This document shows, one piece after another, positions 20,667-26,695 of a DNA stretch of 64,000 nucleotides (the first letter of the stretch is position 1; each line of letters begins with the position of its first letter). Position numbers and translations under genes: made by a program. The notes under the pieces were generated by a model, which saw only the letters and a list, made by a program, of their open reading frames with translations, ran no database searches and was not told where the DNA came from. The stretch is from the human T2T-CHM13v2.0 reference genome, Homo sapiens. Location: positions 33,856,001 through 33,920,000 of the forward strand of contig CP068257.2 in the NCBI GenBank assembly GCA_009914755.4, written 5' to 3'.

Positions 20667-20886
20667 ATATATATTTTTTTAATTATACTTTAAGTTTTAG
20701 GGTACATGTGCACATTGTGCAGGTTAGTTACATATGTATACATGTGCCATGCTGGTGCACTGCACCCACTAACTCGTCATCTAGCATTAGGTATATCTCC
20801 CAATGCTATCCCTCCCCCCTCCCCCCTCCCCACCACAGTCCCCAGAGTGTGATATTCCCCTTCCTGTGTCCATGTGATCTCATTGT

Positions 20887-23800
20887 TCAATTCCCACCTA
20901 TGAGTGAGAATATGCGGTGTTTGGTTTTTTGTTCTTGCGATAGTGTACTGAGAATGATGGTTTCCAATTTCATCCATGTCCCTACAAAGGACATGAACTC
21001 ATCATTTTTTATGGCTGCATAGTATTCCATGGTGTATATGTGCCACATTTTCTTAATCCAGTCTATCATTGTTGGACATTTGGGTTGGTTCCAAGTCTTT
21101 GCTATTGTGAATAATGCCGCAATAAACATACGTGTGCATGTGTCTTTATAGCAGCATGATTTATAGTCATTTGGGTATATACCCAGTAATGGAATGGCTG
21201 GGTCAAATGGTATTTCTAGTTCTAGATCCCTGAGGAATCGCCACACTGACTTCCACAATGGTTGAACTAGTTTACAGTCCCACCAACAGTGTAAAAGTGT
21301 TCCTATTTCTCCACATCCTCTCCAGCACCTGTTGTTTCCTGACTTTTTAATGATTGCCATTCTAACTGGTGTGAGATGATATCTCATAGTGGTTTTGATT
21401 TGCATTTCTCTGATGGCCAGTGATGATGAGCATTTTTTCATGTGTTTTTTGGCTGCATAAATGTCTTCTTTTGCGAAGTGTCTGTTCATGTCCTTTGCCC
21501 ACTTTTTGATGGGGTTGTTTGTTTTTTTCTTGTAAATTTGTTTGAGTTCATTGTAGATTCTGGATATTAGCCCTTTGTCAGATGAGTAGGTTGCAAAAAT
21601 TTTCTCCCATTTTGTAGGTTGCCTGTTCACTCTGATGGTAGTTTCTTTTGCTGTGCAGAAGCTCTTTAGTTTAATTAGATCCCATTTGTCAATTTTGGCT
21701 TTTGTTGCCATTGCTTTTGGTGTTTTGGACATGAAGTCCTTGCCCACGCCTATGTCCTGAATGGTAATGCCTAGGTCTTCTTCTAGGGTTTTTATGGTTT
21801 TAGGTCTAACGTTTAAATCTTTAATCCATCTTGAATTGATTTTTGTATAAGGTGTAAGGAAGGGATCCAGTTTCAGCTTTCTACATATGGCTAGCCAGTT
21901 TTCCCAGCACCATTTATTAAATAGGGAATCCTTTCCCCATTGCTTGTTTTTCTCAGGTTTGTCAAAGATCAGATAGTTGTAGGTAAGCGGCGTTATTTCT
22001 GAGGGCTCTGTTCTGTTCCATTGATCTATATCTCTGTTTTGGTACCAGTACCATGCTGTTTTGGTTACTGTAGCCTTGTAGTATAGTTTGAAGTCAGGTA
22101 GTGTGATGCCTCCAGCTTTGTTCTTTTGGCTTAGGATTGACTTGGCGATGCGGGCTCTTTTTTGGTTCCGTATGAACTTTAAAGTAGTTTTTTCCAATTC
22201 TGTGAGGAAAGTCATTGGTAGCTTGATGGGGATGGCATTGAATCTGTAAATTACCTTGGGCAGTATGGCCATTTTCACGATATTGATTCTTCCTACCCAT
22301 GAGCATGGAATGTTCTTCCATTTGTTTGTATCCTCTTTTATTTCCTTGAGCAGTGGTTTGTAGTTCTCCTTGAAGAGGTCCTTCACATCCCTTGTAAGTT
22401 GGATTCCTAGGTATTTTACTCTCTTTGAAGCAATTGTGAATGGGAGTTCACTCATGATTTGGCTCTCTGTTTGTCTGTTGTTGGTGTATAGGAATGCTTG
22501 TGATTTTTGTACATTGATTTTGTATCCTGAGACTTTGCTGAAGTTGCTTATTAGCTTAAGGAGATTTTGGGCTGAGATGATGGGGTTTTCTAGATAAACA
22601 ATCATGTCGTCTGTAAACAGGGACAATTTGACTTCCTCTTTTCCTAATTGAATACCCTTTATTTCCTTCTCCTGCCTGATTGCCCTGGCCAGAACTTCCA
22701 ACACTATGTTGAATAGGAGCGGTGAGAGAGGGCATCCCTGTCTTGTGCCAGTTTTCAAAGGGAAAGCTTCCAGTTTTTGCCCATTCAGTATGATATTGGC
22801 TGTGGGTTTGTCATAGATAGCTCTTATTATTTTGAAATACGTCCCATCAATACCTAATTTATTGAGAGTTTTTAGCATGAAGGGTTGTTGAATTTTGTCA
22901 AAGGCTTTTTCTGCATCTATTGAGATAATCATGTGGTTTTTGTCTTTGGCTGTGTTTATATGCTGGATTACATTTATTGATTTGCGTATATTGAACCAGC
23001 CTTGCATCCCAGGGATGAAGCCCACTTGATCATGGTGAATAAGCTTTTTGATGTGCTGCTGGATTCGGTTTGCCAGTATTTTATTGAGGATTTTTGCATC
23101 AATGTTCATCAAGGATATTGGTCTAAAATTCTCTTTTTTGGTTGTGTCTCTGCCCGGCTTTGGTATCAGAATGATGCTGGCCTCATAAAATGAGTTAGGG
23201 AGGATTCCCTCTTTTTCTATTGATTGGAATAGTTTCAGAAGGAATGGTAGCAGTTCCTCCTTGTACCTCTGGTAGAATTCGGCTGTGAATCCATCTGGTC
23301 CTGGACTCTTTTTGGTTGGTAAACTATTGATTATTGCCACAATTTCAGCTCCTGTTATTGGTCTATTCAGAGATTCAACTTCTTCCTGGTTTAGTCTTGG
23401 GAGAGTGTATGTGTCGAGGAATGTATCCATTTCTTCTAGATTTTCTAGTTTATTTGCGTAGAGGTGTTTGTAGTATTCTTTGATGGTAGTTTGTATTTCT
23501 GTGGGATCGGTGGTGATAACCCCTTTATCATTTTTTACTGTGTCTATTTGATTCTTCTCTCTTTTTTTCTTTCTTAGTCTTGCTAGCGGTCTATCAATTT
23601 TGTTGATCCTTTCAAAAAAACCAGCTCCTGGATTCATTGATTTTTTGAAGGGTTTTTTGTGTCTCTATTTCCTTCAGTTCTGCTCTGATTTTAGTTATTT
23701 CTTGCCTTCTGCTAGCTTTTGAATGTGTTTGCTCTTGCTTTTCTAGTTCTTTTAATTGTGATGTTAGGGTGTCAATTTTGGATCTTTCCTGCTTTCTCTT

Positions 23801-24775: not shown

Positions 24776-25792
24776 TTACATTTTGGCATGATTTTGCAGC
24801 GGCTGGTACCGGTTGTTCCTTTCCATGTTTAGCGCTTCCTTCAGGAGCTCTTTTAGGGCAGGCCTGGTGGTGACAAAATCGGTCAGCATTTGCTTGTCTG
24901 TAAAGTATTTTATTTCTCCTTCACTTATGAAGCTTAGTTTGGCTGGATATGAAATTCTGGGTTGAAAATTCTTTTCTTTAAGAATGTTGAATATTGGCCC
25001 CCACTCTCTTCTGGCTTGTAGGGTTTCTGCCAAGAGATCCGCTGTCAGTCTGATGGGCTTCCCTTTGAGGGTAACCCGACCTTTCTCTCTGGCTGCCCTT
25101 AACATTTTTTCCTTCATTTCAACTTTGGTGAATCTGACAATTATGTGTCTTGGAGTTGCTCCTCTCGAGGAGTATCTTTGTGGCGTTCTCTGTATTTCCT
25201 GAATCTGAACGTTGGCCTGCCTTGCTAGATTGGGGAAGTTCTCCTGGATAATATCCTGCAGAGTGTTTTCCAACTTGGTTCCATTCTCCGCATCACTTTC
25301 AGGTACACCAATCAGATGTAGATTTGGTCTTTTCACATAGTCCCATATTTCTTGGAGGCTTTGCTCATTTCTTTTTATTCTTTTTTCTCTAAACTTCCCT
25401 TCTTGCTTCATTTCATTCATTTCATCTTCCATTGCTGATACCCTTTCTTCCAGTTGATCGCATCGGCTCCTGAGGCTTCTGCATTCTTCACGTAGTTCTC
25501 GAGCCTTGGTTTTCAGCTCCATCAGCTCCTTTAAGCACTTCTCTGTATTGGTTATTCTAGTTATACATTCTTCTAAATTTTTTTCAAAGTTTTCGACTTC
25601 TTTGCCTTTGGTTTGAATGTCCTCCCGTAGCTCAGAGTAATTTGATCGTCTGAAGCCTTCTTCTCTCAGCTCGTCAAAATCATTCTCCATCCAGCTTTGT
25701 TCCGTTGCTGGTGAGGAACTGCGTTCCTTTGGAGGAGGAGAGGCGCTCTGCGTCTTAGAGTTTCCAGTTTTTCTGTTCTGTTTTTTCCCCAT
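24776..25792 (-). CDS. L1 ORF1p (338 aa, apparently intact; coiled-coil / RRM / CTD RNA-binding chaperone)
   Basis: The track ORF begins MGKKQNRKTGNSKTQSASPPPKERSSSPATEQSWMENDFDELREEGFRRSNYSELREDIQTKGKEVENFEKNLEE and ends NNRYQPLQNHAKM. It is full-length and differs from L1HS ORF1p by only a few residues. It ends 63 bp upstream of the ORF2 start, the canonical inter-ORF spacer. Confidence 0.93.
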   Translation of the reverse strand: MGKKQNRKTGNSKTQSASPPPKERSSSPATEQSWMENDFDELREEGFRRSNYSELREDIQTKGKEVENFEKNLEECITRITNTEKCLKELMELKTKARELREECRSLRSRCDQLEERVSAMEDEMNEMKQEGKFREKRIKRNEQSLQEIWDYVKRPNLHLIGVPESDAENGTKLENTLQDIIQENFPNLARQANVQIQEIQRTPQRYSSRGATPRHIIVRFTKVEMKEKMLRAAREKGRVTLKGKPIRLTADLLAETLQARREWGPIFNILKEKNFQPRISYPAKLSFISEGEIKYFTDKQMLTDFVTTRPALKELLKEALNMERNNRYQPLQNHAKM

Positions 25793-26695
25793 CTTTGTGG
25801 TTTTATCTACTTTTGGTCTTTGATGATGGTGATGTACAGATGGGTTTTCGGTGTGGATGTCCTTTCTGCTTGTTAGTTTTCCTTCTAACAGACAGGACCC
25901 TCAGCTGCAGGTCTGTTGGAATACCCTGCCGTGTGAGGTGTCAGTGTGCCCCTGCTGGGGGGTGCCTCCCAGTTAGGCTGCTCGGGGGTCAGGGGTCAGG
26001 GACCCACTTGAGGAGGCAGTCTGCCCGTTCTCAGATCTCCAGCTGCGTGCTGGGAGAACCACTGCTCTCTTCAAAGCTGTCAGACAGGGACATTTAAGTC
26101 TGCAGAGGTTACTGCTGTCTTTTTGTTTGTCTGTGCCCTGCCCCCAGAGGTGGAGCCTACAGAGGCAGGCAGGCCTCGAGCTGTGGTGGGCTCCACCCAG
26201 TTCGAGCTTCCCGGCTGCTTTGTTTACCTAATCAAGCCTGGGCAATGGCGGGCTCCCCTCCCCCAGCCTCGCTGCCGCCTTGCAGTTTGATCTCAGACTG
26301 CTGTGCTAGCAATCAGCGAGACTCCGTGGGCGTAGGACCCTCCGAGCCAGGTGTGGGATATAGTCTCGTGGTGCGCCGTTTTTTAAGCCGGTCTGAAAAG
26401 CGCAATATTCGGGTGGGAGTGACCCGATTTTCCAGGTGCGTCCGTCACCCCTTTCTTTGACTCGGAAAGGGAACTCCCTGACCCCTGGCGCTTCCCAGGT
26501 GAGGCAATGCCTCGCCCTGCTTCGGCTCGCGCACGGTGCGCGCACCCACTGGCCTGCGCCCACTGTCTGGCACTCCCTAGTGAGATGAACCCGGTACCTC
26601 AGATGGCAATGCAGAAATCACCCGTCTTCTGTGTCGCTCACGCTGGGAGCTGTAGACCGGAGCTGTTCCTATTCGGCCATCTTGGCTCCTCCCCC
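25793..26695 (-). promoter_or_regulatory. L1 5'UTR: internal sense Pol II promoter, CpG-rich, with the known antisense promoter of L1 5'UTRs
   Basis: A ~900 bp GC- and CpG-rich block lies between the ORF1 start and the L1 5' terminus (e.g. gcgcgcaccgtgcgcgagccgaagcagggcgaggc on the reverse complement). Promoter function follows from established L1 biology, not from a motif-by-motif check. Confidence 0.75.

What the first reader, a model, noticed from the sequence alone, without database searches (positions are those of the whole stretch)
20667..26695. Nearly intact full-length young L1: intact ORF1 and promoter, ORF2 interrupted only by a single-base T6->T7 homopolymer insertion
The element is full length (6.03 kb). 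It carries a complete 5'UTR start, an intact 338-aa ORF1 and the canonical 63-bp inter-ORF spacer. All ORF2 catalytic landmarks are present: EN residues N14/E43/D145/N147/D229/H230, the RT motifs and the CX3CX7HX4C zinc knuckle. The only lesion I can see is a T7 run where the L1 consensus has T6 (the A7 at plus-strand 23614..23620), which creates SWFF*. Homopolymer length errors are the classic sequencing or assembly artefact. So this is either a genuinely, very recently inactivated element, or an element that is intact in reality or in other alleles. The second case would make it a retrotransposition-competent L1 of the L1PA2/3-like class, which is rarely active in humans.
Basis: partly seen in the sequence, partly recalled or inferred. 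Interest (0 to 1): 0.6.

Follow-up and report, generated by a model that had tools for sequence, protein, structure and literature searches.

The report
Old, decaying full-length L1PA2-like retrotransposon
This is an ordinary, several-million-year-old full-length LINE-1 copy whose reading frames look almost intact, but it carries many private mutations, one of them experimentally shown to kill mobility, so repairing the single frameshift would not make it active.

Summary
The sequence facts are right. A 6.03-kb full-length L1 lies on the minus strand at 20667-26696, flanked by a 12-bp target-site duplication. ORF1 is open (338 aa), the inter-ORF spacer is 63 bp, and ORF2 is broken only by a T7 run at 23614-23620. 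Removing one T gives one open frame.

The claim of an "only lesion" and the "young, possibly competent" reading do not hold.
- ORF1p carries R159H, which abolished retrotransposition when introduced into L1RP (PMC6295051).
- Repaired ORF2p is 1274 aa, not 1275, because of an in-frame K93 deletion.
- The RT loop FADD reads FTDD.
- Repaired ORF2p differs from L1HS ORF2p at 36 positions. 21 are found in none of 15-42 other L1 copies, several in mutation-sensitive windows (C40Y/I41L, W849R).
- About 44 private non-CpG substitutions, 15 of about 90 CpGs lost, three private indels, an A7 tail and a roughly neutral nonsynonymous:synonymous ratio point to about 6-9 My of neutral decay.
- The 3'UTR diagnostic triplet is GAG, meaning L1PA2 or older.

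22 of 23 internal homopolymers have the consensus length, so a homopolymer artefact is not favoured. The copy is ordinary and of low interest.

The parts
26697..26708 (-). 5' target-site duplication ATATTAATGGAG (preceded by AAAA, so possibly 16 bp)
   Evidence: Exact 12-bp repeat found only at these two places in 20500-26900.
20667..26696 (-). Full-length L1PA2-like LINE-1 element (6030 bp counting one extra 5' G)
   Evidence: It is 97-98% identical over its length to human-contaminant L1 contigs.
25793..26696 (-). 5'UTR / internal promoter region, about 903 bp, so the short great-ape form without the 129-bp ZNF93 segment. It holds 40 CpGs. Private changes include G>A at 26632, T>G at 26607 and an AAG deletion between 26178 and 26177.
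   Evidence: The 129-bp deletion background comes from 10.1101/429613.
26674..26684 (-). CAAGATGGCCG box near the 5' end, intact. That this is the YY1-binding site is from my own knowledge.
26245..26460 (+). 71-aa ATG ORF antisense to the 5'UTR, a candidate ORF0
   Evidence: ORF0 is reported for L1HS and L1PA2-8 (PMC7746726). Identity with the published ORF0 was not checked.
24776..25792 (-). ORF1, open, 338 aa, with trimerisation, RRM and CTD domains
25316..25318 (-). ORF1 codon 159, CAT (His) where other copies have CGT (Arg). This is a CpG transition giving R159H.
   Evidence: 16 of 17 other copies have G at 25317. R159H abolished retrotransposition in L1RP (PMC6295051).
24713..24775 (-). 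63-bp inter-ORF spacer with stops in all three frames
23612..24712 (-). ORF2 first segment (EN domain and tower), 366 codons, then TGA created by the frameshift
24436..24437 (-). Site of the private in-frame 3-bp (AAA) deletion that removes K93 (RDKEGH becomes RDEGH)
   Evidence: 19/19 other copies have AAA. Trialanine RDK91-93 gave 10% and EGH94-96 gave 3% of wild type.
23614..23620 (-). T7 homopolymer (T6 in every other copy), a +1 bp frameshift giving SWFF*
20887..23613 (-). ORF2 second segment (RT, wrist, C-terminal Cys-rich domain) in the +1 frame, open to the canonical stop
22606..22617 (-). RT motif C encoded as F-T-D-D instead of F-A-D-D (A701T; ACA at 22612-22614)
   Evidence: 0 of 37 other copies have T.
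21274..21327 (-). CX3CX7HX4C motif ([18 protein letters not shown]), intact
20773..20775 (-). 3'UTR diagnostic trinucleotide GAG (ACA in Ta, ACG in pre-Ta)
   Evidence: PMC7026601.
20674..20680 (-). Residual poly(A) tail, only A7, followed by TATATAT (20667-20673)
20655..20666 (-). 3' target-site duplication ATATTAATGGAG

Best explanation
This is a fixed, several-million-year-old full-length L1PA2-like LINE-1 insertion. It arrived by ordinary endonuclease-dependent target-primed reverse transcription at a TTTTT/AT-type site, leaving a 12-16-bp target-site duplication. Since then it has decayed neutrally.

The extra T in the T6 run is one of three private indels and roughly 55-60 private substitutions. 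By chance none of the substitutions made a stop codon, so the copy looks 'nearly intact'. It is nonetheless not retrotransposition-competent, and it would not become so if the T7 were T6:
- ORF1p carries the experimentally inactivating R159H change.
- ORF2p carries a K93 deletion in the endonuclease, A701T in the FADD loop, and about 20 further unique substitutions (C40Y/I41L, W849R, F837L, R588T and others).

Shown here: the anatomy, the private lesions, and the GAG diagnostic. Inferred: the age (from assumed mutation rates), the fixation status, and the loss of function of ORF2p.
For: Anatomy:
- Searches give the structure. Matches to solved L1 ORF1p and ORF2p structures have E=0 to 1e-137.

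Subfamily:
- The 3'UTR triplet is GAG. PMC7026601 reads this as L1PA2 or older.
- The 3'UTR otherwise matches the ACA-bearing contig L011, apart from one CpG decay.
- The element has the ~6.03-kb short-5'UTR form.
- It shares 6 L1HS-derived ORF2 residues that most other copies lack, and it lacks 12 others.

Decay:
- 48 nucleotide states are seen in no other copy. 4 of these are really L1HS-shared, leaving about 44.
- Within ORF2 the private changes are 24 nonsynonymous to 9 synonymous.
- 15 of about 90 inferred CpGs are lost.
- There are three private indels, and the poly(A) tail is only A7.

Inactivating changes:
- ORF1p is H159, and R159H abolished L1RP retrotransposition.
- Trialanine mutant activities as a percentage of wild type: LRL158-160 5.9%, CIQ40-42 2.3%, RDK91-93 10%, EGH94-96 3.1%, FIW847-849 8.2%.

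T7 is probably real:
- 22 of 23 internal homopolymers have the consensus length.

Background:
- Only about 3% of L1PA2 copies longer than 5 kb are ORF-intact in CHM1. L1PA2 is regarded as no longer active in humans.
Against: - No curated L1HS, L1PA2 or L1PA3 DNA consensus was available. My DNA reference set was human-contaminant contigs from bacterial assemblies. These are chimeric mixtures of L1PA families, so private synonymous and UTR counts are approximate.
- The L1PA2 versus young L1PA3 call rests on few characters.
- The age uses assumed mutation rates.
- R159H was tested in an L1RP background, not in this one.
- Trialanine data are not the same substitutions as those found here.
- A701M retains RT activity, so A701T may be tolerated.
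- I could not see reads, alleles or orthologous loci, and the species of the window is not known.
Confidence: 0.9

Rival explanations
1. The T7 is a sequencing or assembly error, or one allele of a polymorphism. The true or alternative allele is T6, which would make this an ORF-intact L1PA2 copy. It would still be non-mobile because of ORF1p R159H and the ORF2p lesions.
For: Homopolymer length is the commonest error and mutation class. Loci that are ORF-intact on some haplotypes and interrupted on others are common in pangenome data (10.64898/2026.05.14.725010; 10.1101/594200). The rest of both ORFs is open.
Against: 22 of 23 internal homopolymers of 6 nt or more in the element have the consensus length, so there is no sign of systematic homopolymer error. 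Two other private indels exist. The repaired 1274-aa protein is not present as an exact sequence in the 15-billion-protein collection, although that collection seems to lack hominoid L1 altogether. A scan of metagenome contigs for either allele linked to the private R381 codon found nothing.
Confidence: 0.07
2. One reading: with T6 the element is a retrotransposition-competent L1PA2/3-class source element.
For: It has a full-length 5'UTR with the CAAGATGGCCG box, an open ORF1 and all catalytic residues. The L1PA2 family is reported as still active in chimpanzee and bonobo (PMC7449397).
Against: ORF1p R159H abolishes retrotransposition. ORF2p has the K93 deletion, FTDD, C40Y/I41L and W849R in sensitive windows. 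There are about 0.7% private non-CpG divergence and 17% CpG loss. No close relative shares its private states, so there is no sign that it produced progeny among the copies sampled. L1PA2 is regarded as inactive in humans.
Confidence: 0.015
3. The frameshift is bypassed at low level, so some full-length ORF2p is made. Two routes are conceivable: a +1 ribosomal slip of tRNA-Phe on UUU-UUU-U at the UGA stop, or polymerase slippage on the T7 run. That ORF2p could act in trans, for example on Alu, which does not need ORF1p.
For: Sequence only. The context UGG UUU UUU UGA A allows perfect re-pairing of tRNA-Phe in the +1 frame next to a stop codon. This resembles known +1 sites such as prfB and antizyme (my own knowledge).
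Against: No stimulatory element was looked for or found. ORF2p still carries 21 unique changes. The site arose by a random insertion, not by selection. No other L1 copy sampled has T7.
Confidence: 0.015

Closest known systems
L1PA2 subfamily of primate LINE-1 (Repbase/Dfam naming); the immediate predecessor of L1HS
   Same: Full-length ~6.03-kb architecture with the short 5'UTR. ORF1 is 338 aa and the spacer is 63 bp. The 3'UTR has GAG at the Ta/pre-Ta diagnostic triplet and is otherwise L1HS-like. ORF2p is 97% identical to L1HS ORF2p, with a mix of ancestral and L1HS-derived states.
   Different: It carries about 55-60 private substitutions and 3 private indels expected of an individual decayed copy. 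Assignment to L1PA2 rather than young L1PA3 was not tested against curated consensus sequences.
Retrotransposition-competent L1HS elements (L1RP, L1.3; PDB 8uw3/8sxt ORF2p, 2yko ORF1p)
   Same: Same domain order, and all catalytic residues are present: EN N14/E43/D145/N147/D205/D229/H230, RT D600/D702/D703, and the Cys-rich motif.
   Different: ORF2 is frameshifted. It differs at 36 ORF2p positions, including loss of K93 and A701T. ORF1p differs by R130Q, R159H, R211G, S254L, R304T and one more change. The 3'UTR triplet is GAG, not ACA.
Genomic L1 copies carrying ORF1 R159 variants (Pereira et al. 2018, PMC6295051)
   Same: The same CpG-driven CGT>CAT change giving R159H. This variant class (R159 changed to His, Cys or Pro, His the commonest) is reported in 40% of non-intact full-length L1s and 4.8% of ORF-intact ones.
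   Different: None of note. This copy is simply one more example.
ORF-intact L1PA2 copies in long-read human assemblies (CHM1/CHM13, HPRC)
   Same: Old, mostly fixed insertions that retain open frames by chance. Intactness often differs between haplotypes.
   Different: This copy is not ORF-intact in the sequence given.

Membership tests
LINE-1 (L1) full-length element | ORF1p with trimerisation coiled coil, RRM and CTD | tested here: met
   Pfam Tnp_22_trimer, Transposase_22 and Tnp_22_dsRBD, E 1e-31 to 1e-63. PDB 2yko match at E 1e-137.
LINE-1 (L1) full-length element | ORF2p with APE-type endonuclease, reverse transcriptase and C-terminal Cys-rich motif | tested here: met
   PDB 8uw3 full-length match over 1-1274. 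Pfam Exo_endo_phos and RVT_1. Catalytic residues and CX3CX7HX4C are present.
LINE-1 (L1) full-length element | Insertion hallmarks: target-site duplication, 3' poly(A), T-rich EN target | tested here: met
   12-bp exact TSD at 26697-26708 and 20655-20666. The tail is A7. The pre-insertion site reads ...CAT|AAAAATATT..., that is TTTTT/AT on the nicked strand.
L1PA2 subfamily (versus L1HS Ta/pre-Ta) | 3'UTR diagnostic trinucleotide GAG rather than ACA or ACG | tested here: met
   GATGACGAGTTAG at 20769-20781. Criterion from PMC7026601.
L1PA2 subfamily (versus L1PA3 and older) | Match to the curated L1PA2 consensus better than to L1PA3; short 5'UTR lacking the 129-bp ZNF93 site | tested here: inconclusive
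   The length of 6029-6030 bp fits the short form. The 3'UTR has CACAATGTG as in the ACA contig, not CACATTGTG or CACGTTGTG as in older-looking contigs. Six L1HS-derived ORF2 residues are shared. No curated consensus was available.
Retrotransposition-competent L1 (RC-L1) | Two uninterrupted ORFs | tested here: not met
   ORF2 is split by the +1 bp T7 run at 23614-23620.
Retrotransposition-competent L1 (RC-L1) | Functional ORF1p RNA-binding residues (R159, R261/R262, REKG235-238, YPAKLS282-287) | tested here: not met
   Residue 159 is H, and R159H abolishes L1RP retrotransposition. R261/R262, REKG235-238 and Y282 were checked and are present. The full YPAKLS motif is readable in the ORF1 translation.
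Retrotransposition-competent L1 (RC-L1) | [quoted passage not shown] | not testable with these tools
   Requires cloning and a reporter assay.

The most novel reading that the evidence does not exclude
A T6 allele of this locus segregates, or the UUU-UUU-UGA context allows occasional +1 read-through. Either way this old L1PA2-like copy would supply some full-length ORF2p. Despite a dead ORF1p, that protein could act in trans (Alu/SVA mobilisation, cytoplasmic cDNA synthesis). It would be a non-L1HS source of ORF2p activity.
Probability: 0.03. Interest if true: 0.4.

Novelty: already known. Interest (0 to 1): 0.08.

Why it matters
It matters little. Primate genomes hold thousands of full-length L1PA2/3 copies. 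A few percent are still ORF-intact by chance, and many more are one lesion away.

The useful lesson is about method. An open reading frame with all catalytic residues present does not mean a functional element. A missense-level comparison shows that this copy is dead whatever the length of the homopolymer. The comparison drew on L1HS proteins, other copies, and published R159H and trialanine data. If a T6 allele existed, it would add one more entry to catalogues of ORF-intact but inactive L1PA2 loci.

Tried and rejected
1. The search of the 5.8-billion-protein collection with the repaired ORF2p returned nothing closer than 84-92% (marmoset, macaque). Hominoid L1 proteins seem absent, so it gave no subfamily reference. 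I used those hits only as outgroups.
2. Exact look-ups of ORF1p, both ORF2 pieces and the repaired ORF2p found none in the collection. This says little, given point 1.
3. I hoped Supplemental File S1 of 10.1101/594200 held L1PA2-6 and intact L1HS DNA. As stored, it is a NEXUS tree and taxon list, not sequences.
4. The genome-contig scan gave 80 human-contaminant L1 contigs. They are chimeric (for example ACA or GAG 3' ends joined to older-type ORF2 5' parts) and are 98% rather than 100% identical to L1HS ORF2p. I therefore used them only as a panel to ask whether any other copy shares a given state, not as a consensus.
5. A metagenome scan for T6 or T7 linked to the private R381 codon gave no hit.
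6. The Rfam gathering scan of the window found nothing.
7. I first counted A20S, P21A, N29S and M989V as private changes. I rejected that once the L1HS protein showed they are derived L1HS-lineage states that the contigs lack.
8. I considered FADD to FTDD as decisive and rejected that, because A701M ORF2p is an efficient RT.

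
Full report
**What is there**

On the minus strand, window 20667-26696 holds a full-length LINE-1 of 6029-6030 bp.
- It begins GGGGGGAGGAGCCAAGATGGCCG and ends ...AAAGTATAATTAAAAAAA, followed by TATATAT.
- It is bracketed by an exact 12-bp target-site duplication, ATATTAATGGAG, at 26697-26708 and 20655-20666.
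- The pre-insertion site reads CAT|AAAAATATT, that is TTTTT/AT on the nicked strand. This is a normal L1 endonuclease target (sequence reading plus established TPRT knowledge; hallmarks listed in PMC7026601).
- ORF1 (24776-25792) is open and 338 aa. The spacer (24713-24775) is 63 bp with stops in all frames.
- ORF2 starts at 24712 and reaches the canonical stop at 20887, in two overlapping frames that switch at a T7 run, 23614-23620. Removing one T gives a single open frame.
- The proteins match solved human L1 ORF2p over their full length (8uw3, E=0) and ORF1p (2yko, E=1e-137). They have the expected Pfam domains.

So the description is accurate at the stated coordinates.

The repaired ORF2p is 1274 aa, not 1275. 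A private in-frame AAA deletion removes K93 (RDKEGH becomes RDEGH), whereas all 19 other L1 copies that cover the site have AAA.

The RT active-site loop reads FTDD instead of FADD (A701T). None of 37 other copies and none of 19 primate or other mammalian L1 proteins has T there.

ORF1p has His at position 159 through a CpG transition, CGT>CAT. Pereira et al. introduced exactly R159H into L1RP and found that it abolished retrotransposition, to the level of the JM111 negative control. They also noted that R159 variants (His the commonest) occur in about 40% of non-intact full-length human L1s (PMC6295051). Trialanine replacement of LRL158-160 leaves 5.9% activity.

The 5'UTR also has a private AAG deletion.

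**How decayed is it**

I rebuilt the L1HS ORF2p sequence from the PDB alignments. The repaired protein differs from it at 36 positions.

The public protein collection returned no hominoid L1. I therefore fetched 80 L1-bearing contigs that are human contamination in bacterial assemblies and used them as a panel of other copies. Against that panel:
- 12 of the 36 differences are states that most or all other copies share: V15, K241, N245, S755, D795, R970, A1006, K1035, D1183, M1241 and others. These are lineage-level differences from the Ta-type reference.
- 21 are found in none of 15-42 other copies: H7R, C40Y, I41L, loss of K93, T276S, I381R, I393V, D399V, R412K, K431T, V489L, R588T, A701T, V713I, I766V, F837L, W849R, H910L, N980D, S1081A, K1257T.
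- 3 are rare.
- The copy also shares six L1HS-derived residues that most panel copies lack (S20, A21, S29, A290, V990, N1182). This places it close to, but below, L1HS on the L1PA ladder.

Several unique changes fall in windows that tolerate trialanine replacement poorly. Activities as a percentage of wild type are: CIQ40-42 2.3%, RDK91-93 10%, EGH94-96 3.1%, FIW847-849 8.2%, TFF835-837 35% (Adney et al., bioRxiv 10.1101/721357 supplement). These are not the same substitutions, so this is suggestive only. A701M ORF2p is an efficient RT (PMC10830420), so I do not count FTDD as proven loss of function.

At the DNA level:
- 48 positions carry a base seen in no panel copy. Four of these turned out to be L1HS-shared, leaving about 44, or about 0.7% of the element.
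- Within ORF2 the private changes are 24 nonsynonymous to 9 synonymous by the panel criterion (20:9 after that correction). This is close to what unselected mutation gives.
- 15 of about 90 inferred ancestral CpGs have decayed to TG or CA.
- There are three private indels in all, and the poly(A) tail is down to A7.
- With commonly used hominoid rates of about 1e-9 per site per year, and roughly ten-fold more at CpG (my own knowledge, an inference), both measures give about 6-9 My. That fits the 5.6-15.8 My quoted for L1PA2-L1PA3 (10.1101/594200 citing Khan 2006).

The copy is therefore not young, and one frameshift is what this amount of neutral decay predicts.

**Subfamily**

The 3'UTR diagnostic triplet is GAG (20773-20775), which the literature takes as L1PA2 or older. 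ACA marks Ta and ACG marks pre-Ta. Apart from that triplet and one decayed CpG, the 3'UTR is identical to that of the ACA-bearing contig L011. It has CACAATGTG, where older-looking contigs have CACATTGTG or CACGTTGTG. The 6.03-kb length corresponds to the short 5'UTR that arose in L1PA3 of great apes by the 129-bp ZNF93-site deletion. I therefore call it L1PA2-like. A young L1PA3 is not excluded, because no curated consensus was available.

**Is T7 an artefact?**

I could not look at reads.

As an internal control, I compared every homopolymer of 6 nt or more in the element with the panel. 22 of the 23 internal runs have the consensus length. The one apparent exception besides T7, an A8 run, is due to a G>A substitution rather than an indel. 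There is therefore no sign of a homopolymer-error-prone assembly.

All 21-24 other copies have T6, so T7 is private to this copy. A scan of metagenome contigs for either allele linked to the neighbouring private R381 codon found nothing. Exact look-up of the repaired protein also found nothing. Both negatives are weak.

Allelic differences in intactness at old loci are common in human pangenomes, so a T6 allele remains possible (I put it at about 7%). It would yield an ORF-intact but still immobile element.

**Context and comparison**

In CHM1, 35 of 1,090 L1PA2 copies longer than 5 kb are ORF-intact. L1PA2 is considered no longer active in humans, although the family is reported as still active in chimpanzee and bonobo (PMC7449397). 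A copy one frameshift away from intact is thus an expected, common object. The species of the window is not known. The short 5'UTR form limits it to great apes.

**Verdict**

This is an ordinary decaying L1PA2-like copy of low interest.

Noticed in passing
window 26245-26460 (+), antisense to the L1 5'UTR: An open 71-aa ATG ORF (MAGSPPPASLPPCSLISDCC...) lies where the primate-specific antisense ORF0 of L1HS/L1PA2-8 is expected. It appears intact in this copy. I did not compare it with the published ORF0 sequence.
   Followed up: partly
window 42685-44025 (+): A second, 5'-truncated L1 3' fragment (ORF2 residues ~894-1275 plus the 3'UTR). It is 92.7% identical to the main element and has frameshifts, so it belongs to an older L1PA family.
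   Followed up: partly
window 20667-20683 (-): The usual AATAAA at the L1 3' end reads ATTAAA (GTATAATTAAAAAAA). The A7 tail is followed by TATATAT before the TSD. This may be a small (TA)n expansion of the AT-rich target, or the poly(A) tail may have been replaced.
   Followed up: no
window 24881-24882 (-), ORF1 codon 304: Two adjacent private substitutions (AGA>ACC, R304T) suggest a single dinucleotide mutation event rather than two independent hits.
   Followed up: no
loci L001-L080 (genome contigs): Dozens of GTDB species-representative bacterial assemblies (Streptomyces JCM strains, Mycobacterium, MAGs and others) contain 0.5-7-kb contigs that are human L1 sequence. Some are near full length. 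They look like collapsed chimeras of several L1PA families, for example ACA or GAG 3' ends joined to older ORF2 5' parts.
   Followed up: partly
Homologous-protein result: The 5.8-billion-protein collection returned no hominoid L1 ORF2p for a 97%-L1HS query. The best hits were marmoset and macaque at 84-92%. Either hominoid L1 proteins are absent, or the candidate cap hid them.
   Followed up: no
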